Positions 1,502 to 18,247 are shown, counted from the stretch's first letter. The stretch: DNA of 19,778 nucleotides from a virus (IMGVR_UViG_3300028988_000065:1-19778); one strand, 5' to 3'. The notes: a model not told the origin generated them from the letters alone. A program made the numbers and translations.

Positions 1502-2379
1502 ACAGCGAATCAGATCAAATAAAACGCACATTTGTTAACATTTACACAAAGTCTGCGTGGGATATTCTGAAAGAATATCCATAATGTGGAGAGAATCTAT
1601 TGAAGTGCATGGTGCCGGGTGCCTCCCGGTGAACAAAATGTTCGTGATACCTGTCGGCGACAGAAAAGGTTAATGGTATCACCCCACCGCACAGGGGGAT
1701 TCACCATGCAGGAGTTTTCTTAGCAAACTCACTGCGCGCCCGGCAACTCCCAACCACATAAAATGCGGAGTTTGTGGCATTTATGCATATAACTCGCAGG
1801 AATTATCTTAAAAAACTGATGTCGATCCGGATTAAAAAGAAGCAGGTCATCATCAGATGACTGGAAAAAAGGAAAACAAAAAATACTCATCATACAGTTT
1901 TGATTGCAGGGATGAGCCTGCTATGCACAATATGCAGAATATAAGCAAGATAAAAATATGCAGGCATATTATTTCGGATTTTGTTATTAACACAACCTTT
2001 TTAATAATCATTTGGCATACAATAAACCAGCCCAGAAAGAACCGCCTAAACAGGCGGTTGGTCAATACAAAGGATGCTTCGTCTTTATTATAGTAATCTG
2101 AGGCGTCGGGTGTCTTGTATCAGACAACATATTGTCCCGCTAAACAGCGAATTACAAACCACCCTGCAATGATCTCTCATCTCATTTTATATGAGTTGAC
2201 GACATCAGGATAACGCATCATCAGCCCCTGCCAAGAAATATCAAAACTCCCGCCAGCAATGTGTTATCACAATATTGTAAAAAAAACACAGCACCGAAAC
2301 TATAACTGGTCTCTGTTATAATTTGGAGCAGAAAGACCAGTTGCCCAACTAGCAGCATTCTCCCCTGCTTTCCTGACGT

Positions 2380-10671: not shown

Positions 10672-11094
10672 TTAATGAACAATGACAGAATCGTCGGAAG
10701 AACCGCCGCCGCTGAAATGCGCTTTCCGGTAAACGGCTTGGACTGCATCATCATGCGCATCAATTGCCGTACTTAACGCTTCCTGCGCCGCCAGTAATGC
10801 ACGGCGTTCCAGGGTATCGAAGATGCAGAGTCGGTGACGCAGCTCGCGCGGAAGGATTGCCAGAATTGCTGGGATCAGCTTCTGAATTTTTTCTCTTTGC
10901 GTTTTCGTTTCACCTTTCAACCAACGGTGATAGATATTCTGCTGATTGTTCCAGTCCTTGCCTGGAACCAGGGGCAATTCGCCGCCCCCCTGGCGCAGAT
11001 ATTCTTCAGTAATTGCATTGGCTACCCATGCCTGCCCTTTTTCGGCTGCTAGGGCAAACAACACTGATTCGATGTGCTCATGCTTGATTTTCAT
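10672..11094 (-). CDS. ydaT: YdaT, Rac early protein reported as toxic/cell-division inhibiting (CII position), 140 aa
   Basis: Matches Rac YdaT in sequence and length, from memory; second gene of the rightward early operon. Confidence 0.85.
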   Translation of the reverse strand: MKIKHEHIESVLFALAAEKGQAWVANAITEEYLRQGGGELPLVPGKDWNNQQNIYHRWLKGETKTQREKIQKLIPAILAILPRELRHRLCIFDTLERRALLAAQEALSTAIDAHDDAVQAVYRKAHFSGGGSSDDSVIVH

Positions 11095-11116
11095 GAATCA
11101 TTTGCCTCTTGATGTT

Positions 11117-11413
11117 TCAGGTATGATCAAATGAGGATTTGTTACTGTCATTTAGTTGCTTCACTGACATATTCTGCGAACAACATGCCGAACGTCGTAA
11201 ATATGACCAGTCAATATCAGGACGAAGTTCTTCGCACAGAACCTCACCTCTTGTTGCACGTTCAATTGCTGGACATCTCTCGGCAGGCAATTGACGTACC
11301 CCTTTGATCCATTGATTTACGCTTGGAGGTGATACACCTAAAAGCCTAGCCATTGCTGATTGCCCACCGACAACAGCACAAGCTTGCTTGAATGAATAGT
11401 TCTCTTTTTTCAT
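11117..11413 (-). CDS. ydaS: Cro-like HTH regulator YdaS, 98 aa
   Basis: HTH region QACAVVGGQSAMARLLGVSPPSVNQWIKG. Divergent from racR. Matches Rac YdaS, from memory. Confidence 0.9.
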   Translation of the reverse strand: MKKENYSFKQACAVVGGQSAMARLLGVSPPSVNQWIKGVRQLPAERCPAIERATRGEVLCEELRPDIDWSYLRRSACCSQNMSVKQLNDSNKSSFDHT

Positions 11414-11439
11414 CGAATGAACTCCAAAAACACACAGAA

Positions 11440-11469
11440 ATATTAGGCGACGCCTAACGCAATTGTCAA
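11440..11469 (-). promoter_or_regulatory. PR-like promoter for ydaS with embedded operator palindrome
   Basis: On the - strand: -35 TTGACA (plus 11464-11469), 18-bp spacer, -10 TAATAT (plus 11440-11445). The palindrome TTAGGCGaCGCCTAA (11443-11457) sits in the spacer. Further TTAGGC-type half-sites occur at 11478-11485 and 11503-11510. Confidence 0.55.
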
Positions 11470-11485
11470 TAGGCTGTGCCTAATG
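11462..11485. repeat. 24-bp repeat ATTGTCAATAGGCTGTGCCTAATG, left arm of an inverted repeat flanking racR (OR side)
   Basis: Its reverse complement recurs at 12108-12131 with a single mismatch. Confidence 0.8.
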
Positions 11486-11536
11486 CAGTAAGGGTAGGGA
11501 TTGCCTAATGTAATGCGCATAGGAGAATATTAAGCA

Positions 11537-12013
11537 ATGCTTAGTGGTAAAGACTTAGGCCGAGCGATAGAGCAGGCCATTAACAAAAAAATCGCATCGG
11601 GATCCGTCAAATCAAAGGCGGAGGTCGCACGCCACTTTAAAGTCCAACCACCATCAATTTATGACTGGATTAAGAAAGGCTCTATAAGTAAAGATAAACT
11701 TCCAGAATTATGGCGTTTCTTTTCTGATGTTGTTGGTCCAGAGCATTGGGGGCTTAACGAATACCCCATACCAACCCCCACCAATTCAGATACAAAAAGT
11801 GAACTTTTAGATATAAACAACCTTTATCAAGCAGCCTCTGATGAAATAAGAGCGATTGTAGCTTTCCTGTTATCTGGAAATGCTACAGAACCAGATTGGG
11901 TTGACCACGATGTTCGCGCCTACATAGCAGCGATGGAAATGAAAGTGGGTAAGTATCTGAAAGCTCTTGAATCTGAACGGAAAAGCCAGAACATCACAAA
12001 AACTGGAACTTAA
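11537..12013 (+). CDS. racR: Prophage repressor RacR (CI-like), 158 aa
   Basis: Matches RacR (MLSGKDLGRAIEQAINKKIASGSVKSKAEVARHFKVQPPSIYDWIKKG...), from memory; divergent from ydaS. Confidence 0.9.
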   Translation: MLSGKDLGRAIEQAINKKIASGSVKSKAEVARHFKVQPPSIYDWIKKGSISKDKLPELWRFFSDVVGPEHWGLNEYPIPTPTNSDTKSELLDINNLYQAASDEIRAIVAFLLSGNATEPDWVDHDVRAYIAAMEMKVGKYLKALESERKSQNITKTGT

Positions 12014-12107
12014 ACTTATATGGTCTGACGGAAAACTCCTGGATTCCGTTATTTAACCCCCCCATCACTTTCTGCTGTCGCCATCACCTATTAGGTTACG
12101 CTCAAAA

Positions 12108-12131
12108 CATTAGGCATAGCCTATTGACAAT
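12108..12131. repeat. Right arm of the racR-flanking inverted repeat (OL side)
   Basis: CATTAGGCATAGCCTATTGACAAT is the reverse complement of 11462-11485 with 1 mismatch. Extra TTAGGC half-sites lie at 12087-12095 and 12133-12143. Confidence 0.8.
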
Positions 12132-12152
12132 CAATTAGGCATTACCTATAGT
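12124..12152 (+). promoter_or_regulatory. PL-like promoter for the early-left operon (ydaG through intR)
   Basis: -35 TTGACA (12124-12129), 17-bp spacer, -10 TATAGT (12147-12152). Embedded in the operator repeat and oriented away from racR. Confidence 0.6.
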
Positions 12153-12321
12153 TCCAGCATACCACCCACCCCGCCCCACAGAACGCCGGGCAATACTTCG
12201 AGTTACCAGGCAGTGGTAAGGGGTTAAGTAGCCAGCCCGAGGCGTATGAACATGACGGCGGGATTCAAATTTTGCAGTGCAGCAGTTAGTTCCGCCACCC
12301 GGCGTTAAGGGGAGAGATAAG

Positions 12322-12456
12322 ATGGTGCATTACGAAGTAGTTCAGTATTTGATGGATTGTTGCGGTATCACTTACAACCAGGCTGTGCAGGCTTTACGCA
12401 GCAACGACTGGGATCTCTGGCAGGCAGAAGTCGCTATACGTAGCAACAAGATGTGA
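12322..12456 (+). CDS. ydaG: Small Rac protein YdaG, 44 aa
   Basis: ATG with GGGGAGAG RBS. Translation MVHYEVVQYLMDCCGITYNQAVQALRSNDWDLWQAEVAIRSNKM. Confidence 0.7.
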   Translation: MVHYEVVQYLMDCCGITYNQAVQALRSNDWDLWQAEVAIRSNKM

Positions 12457-12466
12457 GATTCGCAAA

Positions 12467-12622
12467 ATGCAAAAAATCGACCTCGGCAACAACGAATCCC
12501 TGGTGTGCGGCGTGTTCCCCAACCAGGATGGAACGTTCACTGCCATGACGTATACCAAAAGCAAAACATTTAAAACCGAAACTGGTGCGCGCCGATGGTT
12601 GGAGAAGCACACAGTAAGCTAA
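12467..12622 (+). CDS. ydaF: Small Rac protein YdaF, 51 aa
   Basis: Translation MQKIDLGNNESLVCGVFPNQDGTFTAMTYTKSKTFKTETGARRWLEKHTVS. Its stop overlaps the sieB stop on the other strand. Confidence 0.7.
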   Translation: MQKIDLGNNESLVCGVFPNQDGTFTAMTYTKSKTFKTETGARRWLEKHTVS

Positions 12623-13107
12623 CGATTAAAACGTCTACTCCTGCTGTTCCAGAATAACTTCATAAAATGGGAGTATTTTTCGGTGACGAGATAATAAGAA
12701 CAGTTTGCGCTATCACTCTGATGTTGAATGATGCCCTTCCGTTCTAATTTTTTCATAACCGGGTTACGGCAAGGAGAAGTGATAATAAGATTTCCTGTTT
12801 TAAGGAAATCTTTAAATACAGCGATTTCTTTCTCAGATAAACGAAGCAATACTCGTTGCTCTGGTAGTAATGAATAATGCTTTTGAATATGTGCTCGCAA
12901 TCTTGAGAAGGAAATGGCGACCACGAAAGAAAAGGAAAAAACGATAATCTGAAAGAGCCAAGGTATTTCAGTATAAGCATTGAATGCGACAGTAAACTCT
13001 TTCGGTATCAGCCAGAGAGTGAGACCAAAAATGATAATCGTATACATAAGTCTTTCGAGTGGCTCGTTAGCAAAAAGTTTCAACAATGGAGTAAATACAT
13101 CCAACAT
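12619..13107 (-). CDS. sieB: Superinfection exclusion protein SieB, 162 aa (membrane protein)
   Basis: Start taken at the MLDVF ATG (13107), matching the K-12 length as I recall it. Hydrophobic segments present. The track ORF runs further upstream to 13230. Confidence 0.8.
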   Translation of the reverse strand: MLDVFTPLLKLFANEPLERLMYTIIIFGLTLWLIPKEFTVAFNAYTEIPWLFQIIVFSFSFVVAISFSRLRAHIQKHYSLLPEQRVLLRLSEKEIAVFKDFLKTGNLIITSPCRNPVMKKLERKGIIQHQSDSANCSYYLVTEKYSHFMKLFWNSRSRRFNR

Positions 13108-17850: not shown

Positions 17851-18045
17851 ATGAGATATGACAATGTTAAACCATGTCCATTTTGTGGTTGTCCATCAGT
17901 AACGGTGAAAGCCATTTCAGGATATTACCGAGCGAAGTGTAACGGATGCGAATCCCGAACCGGTTATGGTGGAAGTGAAAAAGAAGCACTCGAAAGATGG
18001 AATAAACGAACCACTGGAAATAATAATGGAGGTGTTCATGTATAA
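17851..18045 (+). CDS. ralR: RalR (restriction alleviation; reported type I toxin/DNase), 64 aa
   Basis: Translation MRYDNVKPCPFCGCPSVTVKAISGYYRAKCNGCESRTGYGGSEKEALERWNKRTTGNNNGGVHV. Confidence 0.85.
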   Translation: MRYDNVKPCPFCGCPSVTVKAISGYYRAKCNGCESRTGYGGSEKEALERWNKRTTGNNNGGVHV

Positions 18046-18247
18046 AATTACCGCCACTATTGAAAAGGAAGGTGGCACTCCTACTAACTGGACAAGATAT
18101 TCAAAATCTAAACTAACGAAATCAGAATGCGAAAAAATGCTCTCAGGTAAAAAAGAAGCAGGCGTTTCCAGAGAGCAGAAAGTAAAACTGATAAATTTTA
18201 ATTGCGAGAAACTTCAGTCCTCGAGAATTGCATTGTATTCAAATTAA
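18038..18247 (+). CDS. ydaC: YdaC, 69 aa
   Basis: GGAGG RBS. The ATG overlaps the 3' end of ralR. Translation MYKITATIEKEGGTPTNWTRYSKSKLTKSECEKMLSGKKEAG... Confidence 0.75.
   Translation: MYKITATIEKEGGTPTNWTRYSKSKLTKSECEKMLSGKKEAGVSREQKVKLINFNCEKLQSSRIALYSN

What the first reader, a model, noticed from the sequence alone, without database searches (positions are those of the whole stretch)
11440..12152. racR is bracketed by a 24-bp inverted repeat that carries divergent -35/-10 elements: OL/OR-like operator-promoter pair
ATTGTCAATAGGCTGTGCCTAATG at 11462-11485 recurs as its reverse complement at 12108-12131 with one mismatch. Each copy contains a TTGACA -35 oriented away from racR, with a TAATAT -10 towards ydaS and a TATAGT -10 towards ydaG/kilR/recET. 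TTAGGC/GCCTAA half-sites and the palindrome TTAGGCGaCGCCTAA cluster in both intergenic regions. This gives a concrete operator model for RacR repression of both early operons, including the toxic ydaS-ydaT and kilR.
Basis: seen in the sequence. Interest (0 to 1): 0.5.

Follow-up and report, generated by a model that had tools for sequence, protein, structure and literature searches.

The report
Rac prophage left and right operators
The inverted repeat flanking the Rac prophage repressor gene racR is one promoter-plus-repressor-site unit present twice: the copy facing ydaS is already proven by experiment, and the copy facing ydaG/kilR/recET is a well-supported prediction I did not find in the searchable literature.

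Summary
Window 11462-11485 and 12108-12131 are reverse complements with one mismatch, and no shuffle reproduced this. Each arm holds TTGACA pointing away from racR, and each has a good -10.

The window is E. coli K-12 Rac. The repeat is a promoter-operator cassette: one RacR operator (TTAGGC-N3-GCCTAA) abuts the -35, and a second lies in the spacer and -10.

The ydaS-side copy is already published, with RacR footprints, the ATTAGGC motif, the mapped TTGACA/TAATAT promoter and -10 mutagenesis. I found no description of the ydaG-side copy (OLb 12109-12125, OLa 12134-12150, -35 12124-12129, -10 12147-12152).

Support for the ydaG-side copy is strong but computational:
- The same cassette lies downstream of RacR-family repressor genes in 21 of 59 diverged loci. 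It occurs in 0 control flanks and 0 shuffles.
- In 82 Rac alleles its half-sites and hexamers are far less variable than the linkers.
- Four cassettes carrying other repressors diverge from Rac upstream of the predicted +1 (~12159).
- The relative CP-933P has an experimentally shown PL at the same position.
- Published RNA-seq shows ydaG-kilR-recET derepressed when RacR falls.

This is a lambda-type OL/PL-OR/PR arrangement: half known, half a new member of a known kind. Interest is modest.

The parts
11117..11413 (-). ydaS, the Cro-like first gene of the rightward early operon ydaS-ydaT
   Evidence: ORF list. Pfam YdaS_toxin and P22_Cro. RefSeq annotation of the identical K-12 sequence.
11440..11469 (-). 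PydaS (PR analogue): -35 TTGACA 11469-11464, 18-nt spacer, -10 TAATAT 11445-11440; start expected near 11433
   Evidence: Consensus scan, 10 of 12 positions. Published primer extension, and loss of activity when TAATAT is replaced (PMC9638921). The 18-bp spacing is stated in PMC11879457.
11442..11458 (.). ORa: perfect RacR operator ATTAGGCGACGCCTAAC inside the spacer and -10 of PydaS (published O1)
   Evidence: 0 mismatches to TTAGGC-N3-GCCTAA. Protected at the lowest RacR concentration in the published footprint. Half-site diversity 0.000 in 83 alleles.
11462..11485 (.). Left arm of the 24-nt inverted repeat: the PydaS -35 plus operator ORb
11468..11484 (.). ORb: operator AATAGGCTGTGCCTAAT abutting the -35 of PydaS
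   Evidence: 1 mismatch. Half-site diversity 0.004. It resembles OLb rather than the family's usual OR site ATAGGAATTGCCTAA.
11493..11509 (.). ORc: operator GGTAGGGATTGCCTAAT. It contains TTGCCT, the likely -35 of the leaderless racR promoter PracR3. It corresponds to the family's -35 site.
   Evidence: 2 mismatches. Family alignment. Published PracR3 -10 is GAGAAT at 11523-11528. The -35 assignment is my inference.
11529..11545 (.). ORd: operator ATTAAGCAATGCTTAGT centred on the racR start codon (published O3)
   Evidence: PMC9638921. A site centred on the ATG was counted 45 times in 59 relatives. Half-site diversity 0.000.
11537..12013 (+). racR, repressor gene of 158 aa (stop codon included in the coordinates)
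   Evidence: ORF list. 100% identity to K-12 derivatives. The N-terminal domain is nearly invariant across the family.
12026..12054 (+). Weak terminator-like hairpin after racR, a possible analogue of the lambda terminator that ends the cI-rexA-rexB transcript (named timm from memory)
   Evidence: Fold -11 kcal/mol, z = -1.75. The relative L001 keeps the stem with an added G and C. Not called by the terminator scan.
12089..12105 (.). OLc: doubtful third left operator ATTAGGTTACGCTCAAA
   Evidence: 3 mismatches. It lies 20 bp from OLb rather than 25. Its half-sites are as variable as linkers (diversity 0.086), so it is probably not functional.
12108..12131 (.). Right arm of the 24-nt inverted repeat: operator OLb plus the PL -35
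12109..12125 (.). OLb: operator ATTAGGCATAGCCTATT, whose last T begins the PL -35
   Evidence: 1 mismatch. Half-site diversity 0.002. TTAGGC-N3-GCCTATTGACA is conserved in 23 loci.
12124..12152 (+). Predicted PL: -35 TTGACA 12124-12129, 17-nt spacer, -10 TATAGT 12147-12152; start expected near 12159
   Evidence: Scan, 11 of 12 positions. Hexamer diversity 0.008. Sequences with other repressor cassettes diverge from Rac just upstream of 12159. CP-933P has an experimentally active, repressor-controlled PL in the cloned region upstream of the shared leader.
12134..12150 (.). OLa: operator ATTAGGCATTACCTATA inside the PL spacer and -10
   Evidence: 2 mismatches. Half-site diversity 0.025. The equivalent site in relatives is often a perfect TTAGGC-N3-GCCTAA followed by TAT.
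12159..12321 (+). Predicted PL leader, highly conserved and shared by prophages that carry different repressor cassettes
   Evidence: Alignment A2. Thousands of E. coli genomes match only part of the query, at 80-90% identity, and the sampled weak hits cover only this leader. No Rfam match. No covariation.
12322..12622 (+). ydaG (12322-12456) and ydaF (12467-12622), the first genes of the leftward early operon, followed by kilR, ydaE, racC, recE and further genes
   Evidence: ORF list. ydaF matches Pfam DUF1391 and ydaG gives a UBA-like hit. Annotation.

Best explanation
The window is the immunity region of the E. coli K-12 Rac prophage, and it is laid out like that of phage lambda. racR (the cI analogue) sits between two operator clusters, and each cluster overlaps an early promoter that fires away from racR.

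The inverted repeat exists because both promoters are built from one cassette. One RacR operator (TTAGGC-N3-GCCTAA, read as a dimer site) ends in the first T of the -35 TTGACA. A second operator, 25-26 bp away, fills the spacer and runs into the -10. RacR bound to these two sites would block RNA polymerase.

On the ydaS side (ORa, ORb) this shuts off ydaS-ydaT. Two further sites (ORc, ORd) overlie the -35 and the start of the leaderless racR transcript and account for autoregulation. On the other side (OLb, OLa) the same arrangement would shut off a promoter that starts near 12159. That promoter would transcribe a conserved leader, then ydaG, ydaF, kilR, ydaE, racC, recE and recT.

Status of each step:
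- Shown by others: RacR binding and repression at OR, and the ydaS promoter.
- Shown here by computation: the cassette structure, and its conservation and constraint at OL.
- Inferred: RacR binding at OL, PL activity and its start point, and any OL-OR looping by the reported RacR octamer.
For: 1. Anatomy. The two cassettes align in register: TTAGGCATAGCCTAT-TGACAA-TCAA-TTAGGCATTACCTAT-AGT at OL, and TTAGGCACAGCCTAT-TGACAA-TTGCG-TTAGGCGTCGCCTAA-TAT on the reverse strand of OR.
2. OR is experimentally established (PMC5700373, PMC9638921, PMC11879457).
3. Family conservation in 59 loci encoding relatives of the RacR DNA-binding domain, from Enterobacterales, Burkholderiales, Pseudomonas and Lysobacter. 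Operator-like 15-mers occur at 10.2 per kb just upstream of the gene and 36 per kb at the ATG. The rate is 0.03 per kb in gene bodies and far-upstream flanks, and 0.027 per kb in shuffles. Downstream doublets spaced 23-26 bp occur in 21 of 59 loci, in 0 far-upstream flanks and in 0 shuffles. Every listed doublet lies on the repressor's strand. Most carry TTGACA after the first site and TAT after the second.
4. Isolated phages keep the arrangement: Escherichia phage vB_EcoS-683R6 and Klebsiella phage KpF5.
5. Within a locus, the -10-embedded operators of PL and PR match better than between loci: 13.3 versus 11.9 of 15 positions, 0 of 20,000 permutations.
6. Population constraint in 82-83 Rac alleles. 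Diversity is 0.002 in OLb half-sites, 0.025 in OLa half-sites and 0.008 in both hexamers. It is 0.066 in linkers and 0.056 in spacers.
7. Module boundary. Four different repressor cassettes diverge from Rac just upstream of ATACCA(A/C)CCACCCCGCCCC, which begins at window 12159. Each has its own words shared between its two sides. One is the CP-933P type, whose PL933P is repressed about 100-fold by PaaR2.
8. Expression. ydaG, ydaF, kilR, ydaE, racC and recET rise 40-fold or more when RacR is depleted or interfered with (PMC6765115 and bioRxiv 10.64898/2026.09.06.749655). Zygotic induction of the rac recombination genes was reported by Low in 1973, as cited in PMC5917428.
Against: - I found no direct binding, reporter or start-site data for the OL side. 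The published EMSA and footprint fragment spans -186 to +85 from the racR start, which is window 11351-11621, so it excludes OL.
- OLa has a degenerate right half-site (ACCTAT), and OLc shows no constraint. OL occupancy may therefore be weaker than at OR.
- Derepression of the left operon in RNA-seq could be partly indirect, through YdaS, YdaT, excision or read-through from racR.
- The covariation of the 3-nt spacers may partly reflect genome G+C content and shared ancestry, which the permutation test does not control.
- Only 21 of 59 loci show the doublet within the 2.5 kb fetched downstream.
Confidence: 0.82

Rival explanations
1. The OL sites work mainly as auxiliary operators. They would let a RacR octamer loop the roughly 0.65-0.7 kb between OL and OR, tightening repression of PydaS and autoregulation of racR. 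Under this reading the TTGACA/TATAGT pair is not the main promoter of the left operon. This overlaps with the best explanation rather than excluding it.
For: RacR is reported to form octamers (PMC11014345). Lambda CI and PaaR2 also octamerise, and in lambda CI octamerisation on OL and OR forms a DNA loop. In relatives the operator pairs lie 641-2627 bp apart, bracketing lambda's distance of about 2.3 kb, a figure I give from memory.
Against: The -35 and -10 hexamers at OL are as constrained as the operators. They are conserved across the family in fixed register, which a pure looping site would not need. No helical phasing of the OL-OR distance is seen.
Confidence: 0.1
2. The downstream copy is a neutral relic of an old duplication or recombination between the two sides of racR and has no present function.
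For: In Rac, ORb looks like OLb rather than the family's usual OR site. Rac also has one extra operator unit of about 26 bp at OR. Sequence exchange between the two sides has therefore probably happened.
Against: The cassette is retained downstream of repressor genes only 36-60% identical to racR. Its functional positions are selectively conserved among 82 Rac alleles. A near-consensus promoter left unrepressed upstream of kilR would be harmful.
Confidence: 0.05
3. The repeat marks the ends of a mobile or invertible DNA segment that carries racR, as a terminal inverted repeat or a recombinase switch.
For: The geometry fits: a 24-nt inverted repeat encloses a 622-bp segment.
Against: A query built for the inverted junction matched 1086 E. 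coli genomes. None covered the junction, and the best match reached 71%, explained by similarity between OLa and ORa. There is no transposase or invertase between the arms, only racR. The bases immediately outside the arms differ (ACGCA upstream, CAATT downstream), so there are no flanking direct repeats. The arms are fully explained by the -35 plus one operator.
Confidence: 0.01

Closest known systems
Phage lambda immunity region (cI, OR1-3 with PR and PRM, OL1-3 with PL, cro, cII)
   Same: The repressor gene lies between two clusters of tandem palindromic sites about 17 bp long, spaced about 2.4 helical turns apart. The sites overlap divergent early promoters. The repressor gene is on the same strand as the left promoter. 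The repressor transcript is leaderless and its promoter is autoregulated (reported for Rac in PMC9638921). The repressor forms an octamer (PMC11014345). YdaS is the Cro analogue and YdaT the cII analogue (PMC5917428, PMC11879457).
   Different: RacR lacks the S24 self-cleaving domain, so RecA-stimulated self-cleavage of the lambda CI kind is not expected (inference). OR has four sites, and one is centred on the start codon. OL has two constrained sites. The OL-OR distance is about 0.69 kb, against about 2.3 kb in lambda (from memory). YdaS is reported not to repress racR. No N-like antiterminator has been identified downstream of PL.
CP-933P prophage of E. coli O157:H7: PaaR2, YdaS, YdaT with PR933P, PRM933P and PL933P (Jurenas et al. 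2021, PMC8630535)
   Same: It has the same prophage backbone. The PL leader is 85-88% identical and begins at the same position. Its PL has -35 and -10 elements identical to its PR, plus OL1-3. PaaR2 also octamerises. PL933P is experimentally repressed by the repressor and by YdaS.
   Different: The repressor and operator word are different (GTTTAGTAA-type repeats). A toxin-antitoxin pair lies between the repressor gene and OL.
Qin prophage: DicA and DicC with dicCp and dicBp
   Same: A short repressor that is not cleaved during the SOS response. Operators occur both between dicA and dicC and between dicA and dicBp. The left operon begins with a DUF1391 gene (ydfA there, ydaF here) and carries a cell-division inhibitor.
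   Different: DicA belongs to a different repressor family with different operator sequences. Qin has a dedicated antirepressor (Rem), and none is known for RacR.
Published RacR operators O1-O3 in the racR-ydaS intergenic region (Wisniewska et al. 2022, PMC9638921)
   Same: The motif and three of my four OR sites are identical (ORa is O1, ORd is O3). The ydaS promoter is the same.
   Different: That work, and the later papers from the same group that I read, deal only with the racR-ydaS side. The region downstream of racR is absent from their DNA substrates.

Membership tests
Lambda-type immunity region with OL/PL and OR/PR | The repressor gene is flanked on both sides by clusters of its own operator sites | tested here: met
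   All five sites within 2 mismatches of TTAGGC-N3-GCCTAA in 19.8 kb lie at 11443-11508 and 12110-12149. The same holds in relatives.
Lambda-type immunity region with OL/PL and OR/PR | Tandem palindromic sites spaced about 2.3-2.5 helical turns apart | tested here: met
   Centre-to-centre spacing is 26 and 25 bp at OR and 25 bp at OL. It is 24-25 bp in the 23 listed loci.
Lambda-type immunity region with OL/PL and OR/PR | The operators overlap two early promoters that fire outward from the repressor gene | tested here: met
   Consensus scan. PR is confirmed by published primer extension and mutagenesis. PL is supported by sequence, conservation and positional homology only.
Lambda-type immunity region with OL/PL and OR/PR | The repressor physically binds both operator clusters | not testable with these tools
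   OR binding is published, by EMSA, ChIP-qPCR and DNase I footprint. OL was never included in those substrates.
Lambda-type immunity region with OL/PL and OR/PR | The left operon is derepressed when the repressor is removed | tested here: inconclusive
   Published RNA-seq shows 40-fold or greater rises in ydaG, ydaF, kilR, ydaE, racC and recET. Direct and indirect effects were not separated, and no start site has been mapped.
Lambda-type immunity region with OL/PL and OR/PR | Long-range OL-OR cooperativity through a repressor octamer | not testable with these tools
   A RacR octamer is reported. No phasing signal was found. Looping has not been tested.
LexA/CI-type self-cleaving repressor | A C-terminal S24 peptidase domain | tested here: not met
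   RacR has no S24 hit. Relatives with the same N-terminal domain do have one (P0105, L052, L014; alignment).
Mobile element or invertible segment bounded by terminal inverted repeats | A recombinase or transposase is present and alternative orientations occur in populations | tested here: not met
   Only racR lies between the arms. None of 1086 matching genomes has the inverted junction.

The most novel reading that the evidence does not exclude
The promoter-operator cassette, including an operator centred on the repressor's own start codon, is a single immunity specificity shared from Enterobacterales to Burkholderiales and Pseudomonas. It is shared by repressors that keep one DNA-binding domain but carry different C-terminal domains: the self-cleaving S24 type or the RacR type.

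In Rac itself, the reported RacR octamer would bridge OL and OR, about 0.69 kb apart, rather than only filling the four OR sites. OL would then contribute to the tightness and bistability of ydaS-ydaT repression, and so to the lethality of losing RacR. It would also predict cross-immunity or cross-talk between otherwise unrelated prophages.
Probability: 0.35. Interest if true: 0.5.

Novelty: new member of a known kind. Interest (0 to 1): 0.3.

Why it matters
RacR is one of the few essential transcription factors of E. coli K-12, and its regulon is described as not yet characterised in detail (PMC11014345). Published work has treated only the racR-ydaS side. A mapped left promoter with two constrained operators gives a direct, testable reason why kilR, recET and the excision genes rise when RacR falls. 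It also identifies sequence missing from the reporter and footprinting constructs used so far. Finally, it raises the question of whether the reported octamer loops OL to OR. The family-wide conservation provides a ready set of natural variants for studying operator specificity. None of this would surprise a phage biologist, because it is what the lambda model predicts.

Tried and rejected
- Rfam on the whole window found only RalA and STnc100, both far from the feature. A permissive Rfam search of 12000-12700 found nothing.
- The predicted PL leader folds only marginally better than shuffles (z = -1.64). It shows no compensatory changes in five sequences because it is too conserved. Its function remains open.
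- A test for helical phasing of the OL-OR distance across 22 loci gave no pattern.
- A test for inversion of the racR segment was negative.
- A sequence search of solved structures with RacR gave no hit.
- Literature searches for the OL sequence, for RacR with ydaG and promoter, for sbcA with Rac repressor, and for the leader sequence found no description of the Rac left operator. Older papers in subscription journals are not searchable here, so earlier descriptions cannot be excluded.
- OLc (12089-12105) was considered as a third left operator and downgraded, because its half-sites vary as freely as linkers.
- The operator palindromes were flagged as terminator-like hairpins. I dismissed this because the count equals the chance expectation and the stems are 5-7 bp.

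Full report
**Identity of the window**

Bases 11000-12700 are 100% identical to E. coli K-12 derivatives (ER1709, C600). Those records annotate racR, ydaS, ydaT, ydaF and sieB there. In window coordinates:
- racR is 11537-12013 (+).
- ydaS is 11117-11413 (-) and ydaT is 10672-11094 (-).
- ydaG is 12322-12456 (+) and ydaF is 12467-12622 (+).
- kilR, ydaE, racC and recE follow on the + strand.

The order is that of a lambdoid immunity region, with racR in the place of cI, ydaS of cro and ydaT of cII. Others have already noted this (PMC5917428).

**The observation**

The two 24-mers are reverse complements with one mismatch, at 11476. The similarity extends to 35 nt at 83%. No other copy exists in the window, and none appeared in 200 shuffles.

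The promoter scan returned TTGACA-17-TATAGT at 12124-12152 (+), matching 11 of 12 consensus positions. It returned TTGACA-18-TAATAT at 11469-11440 (-), matching 10 of 12. Seven of the eight TTAGGC/GCCTAA hexamers in 19.8 kb lie between 11443 and 12140. All five 15-mers within two mismatches of TTAGGC-N3-GCCTAA lie in the two intergenic regions.

The perfect palindrome is at the ydaS side only. The 24-nt length is particular to this allele: in 82 Rac-type loci the arms differ by 0-4 mismatches at their ends and in the 3-nt spacer. The conserved core is about 21 nt, consisting of the -35 plus one operator.

**What is already known**

The ydaS side has been worked out experimentally.
- Krishnamurthi et al. 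2017 (PMC5700373) described three palindromic repeats in the 123-bp intergenic region. They reported three RacR-DNA complexes by EMSA and ChIP-qPCR enrichment.
- Wisniewska et al. 2022 (PMC9638921) mapped one ydaS start by primer extension, with TTGACA and TAATAT. They abolished the promoter by replacing TAATAT and mapped three racR promoters. The strongest of these, PracR3, gives a leaderless transcript.
- The same paper footprinted RacR, derived the ATTAGGC motif and named operators O1-O3, [T/A]TAGGC-n3-GCCTA[T/A].
- Later papers speak of four operators and report that RacR is an octamer (PMC11014345, PMC11879457).

Their DNA substrate runs from -186 to +85 relative to the racR start, which is window 11351-11621, so it excludes the downstream repeat. 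In the papers I could search, ydaG is mentioned only as a derepressed gene. The 2023 paper states that the RacR regulon is not characterised in detail. Searches for the downstream operator sequence and related terms found nothing.

**Anatomy**

Read in the direction of transcription, the two promoters are built alike.
- Left side (+ strand): TTAGGCATAGCCTAT-TGACAA-TCAA-TTAGGCATTACCTAT-AGT.
- Right side (- strand): TTAGGCACAGCCTAT-TGACAA-TTGCG-TTAGGCGTCGCCTAA-TAT.

In each, one operator ends in the first T of TTGACA. The second operator fills the spacer and supplies the first bases of the -10. A RacR dimer on the second site would lie at roughly -25 to -9 and should exclude RNA polymerase (inference).

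OR has two more sites. ORc (11493-11509) contains TTGCCT at the right distance to be the -35 of PracR3 (my inference). ORd (11529-11545) is centred on the ATG (published as O3).

**Comparative test**

I collected 62 loci encoding relatives of RacR from one genome per species. The first 75 residues of the protein are nearly invariant across these relatives. The C-terminus varies, and many relatives carry an S24 peptidase domain that RacR lacks.

In the 59 loci that are not copies of K-12, operator-like 15-mers are distributed as follows.

| Region | Sites per kb |
|---|---|
| -100 to -10 upstream of the gene | 10.2 |
| At the start codon | 36 |
| Gene bodies | 0.03 |
| Far-upstream flanks | 0.03 |
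| Shuffled sequence | 0.027 |

Downstream of the gene, pairs of sites 23-26 bp apart occur in 21 of 59 loci. They occur in none of the equally large upstream flanks and in no shuffle. Every listed pair lies on the repressor's strand. In most, the first site runs into TTGACA and the second is followed by TAT.

The hosts include Mixta, Morganella, Proteus, Erwinia, Achromobacter, Burkholderia, Bordetella, Comamonas, Lysobacter, Limnohabitans and Pseudomonas. The pair lies 61-1920 bp after the repressor's stop codon, so extra genes can sit in between, as rexAB do in lambda. An isolated Klebsiella phage (KpF5) and an Escherichia phage (vB_EcoS-683R6) show the same arrangement.

Within a locus, the -10-embedded operators of the two promoters resemble each other more than across loci: 13.3 versus 11.9 of 15 positions, with 0 of 20,000 permutations reaching the observed value. 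This includes the 3-nt spacer. Genome composition and shared ancestry may contribute to that signal.

**A Rac-specific feature**

Most relatives have three upstream sites, at -60, -35 and 0. In them the -35 site (ATAGGAATTGCCTAA) serves both promoters. The Rac lineage has four, at -87, -61, -36 and 0.

The family-type site sits at -36 without a TTGACA next to it. The site next to TTGACA (ORb) has the sequence of the left-side operator. An insertion of one unit of about 26 bp, or an exchange between the two sides, would explain why the repeat is so long in Rac. This is inference.

**Population constraint**

I compared 82-83 Rac-type loci: 80 from IMG/VR plus four others. The table gives nucleotide diversity per position class.

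| Position class | OR | OL |
|---|---|---|
| Operator half-sites | 0.000-0.023 | OLb 0.002, OLa 0.025 |
| -35 hexamer | 0.000 | 0.008 |
| -10 hexamer | 0.004 | 0.008 |
| Linkers | 0.150 | 0.066 |
| 3-nt spacers | 0.082 | 0.056 |
| OLc half-sites | not applicable | 0.086 |

The half-sites of the putative third left site, OLc, are as variable as linkers. OLc is probably not an operator.

**Module boundary**

Prophages with the same backbone but other repressors were aligned with Rac. They are L002, the CP-933P type L068, a LexA-family type L069, and L070.

All four diverge from Rac upstream of ATACCA(A/C)CCACCCCGCCCC, which begins at window 12159, six bases after the predicted -10. Each cassette has its own words repeated on both sides of its repressor gene.

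For the CP-933P type, Jurenas et al. 2021 cloned the PL933P region. They showed it to be an active promoter repressed about 100-fold by PaaR2 and by YdaS. The Rac promoter occupies the homologous position.

**Expression data**

ydaC, kilR and ralA rise more than 70-fold, and ydaF, ydaG, ydaE and racC about 40-fold, when a foreign C protein lowers racR expression (PMC6765115). [quoted passage not shown] Zygotic induction of the rac recombination genes has been known since 1973 (cited). These results fit direct repression of a left promoter but do not prove it.

**Rival explanations**

- Invertible or mobile segment: excluded. None of 1086 genomes carries the inverted junction, and only racR lies between the arms.
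- Neutral relic: contradicted by the family-wide and population constraint.
- Looping-only role for the left sites: this does not explain the constrained hexamers, although looping may well occur in addition. No helical phasing was detectable.

**Verdict**

The repeat is real. It marks a lambda-type pair of operator-promoter units. The right unit is already known. The left unit is a well-supported prediction that I could not find described, so it is a new member of a known kind. Interest is modest.

The two points most worth testing are whether the reported RacR octamer bridges the two units, and what it means that a single operator specificity is shared across two classes of Proteobacteria.

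Noticed in passing
window 12159-12321: The roughly 163-nt leader between the predicted PL start and ydaG is very highly conserved. It is shared by prophages with at least five different repressor cassettes. It begins with a C-rich, G-poor run, ACCCACCCCGCCCCACAGAAC. It has no Rfam match, folds only marginally better than shuffles, and shows no covariation. It could be a nut/put-like or Rho-related element, but its function is open.
   Followed up: partly
window 11529-11545; loci L008-L065 at the repressor start codon: An operator centred exactly on the repressor's ATG (ATTAGGCaATGCTTA) was counted 45 times in the 59 relatives. This fixes the first codons (Met-Leu) and implies a leaderless, autoregulated repressor transcript across the family. 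For Rac this is published as O3.
   Followed up: partly
proteins P0103, P0105, P0114; L014:2501-3595; L052:2501-3340: The RacR DNA-binding domain is also found fused to an S24 (LexA/CI-type) self-cleaving domain. RacR itself lacks that domain. The same operator word is therefore used by repressors expected to be SOS-inducible and by others that are not.
   Followed up: partly
window 11442-11545 compared with L008-L013: The Rac lineage has four upstream operators where relatives have three. The extra unit carries a left-side-type operator next to the ydaS -35. This suggests a duplication or an exchange between the two sides of racR.
   Followed up: partly
window 12026-12054: A weak terminator-like hairpin follows racR (-11 kcal/mol, z = -1.75). 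The 87%-identical relative L001 keeps it with a paired G/C insertion.
   Followed up: partly
L002:1847-2470, L068:724-1800, L070:892-1500: Prophages on the same backbone with other repressors each show their own repeated words on both sides of the repressor gene: AGTACATT, GGTTTAGT with TACTTGACT, and AATACCCA. A repressor gene bracketed by matching promoter-operator units is thus general in this group.
   Followed up: partly
window 18044-18222 (-) and 1553-1739 (-): Rfam matches above the gathering score: RalA, the antitoxin sRNA of the RalR/RalA system, and the sRNA family STnc100.
   Followed up: no
L006 (JARKOR010000130.1) and L019 (JAMPER010000001.1): A 5.2-kb contig binned as Candidatus Nanosynbacter encodes a RacR 100% identical to that of E. 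coli Rac and has the same operator sites. A RacR-like locus also sits in a contig binned as Alistipes senegalensis. Both look like mis-binning or contamination in metagenome-assembled genomes.
   Followed up: no
L071:1100-1260 (E. coli FDAARGOS_1287): A natural variant of the predicted PL -10, TATATT instead of TATAGT. It keeps five of six consensus positions.
   Followed up: no
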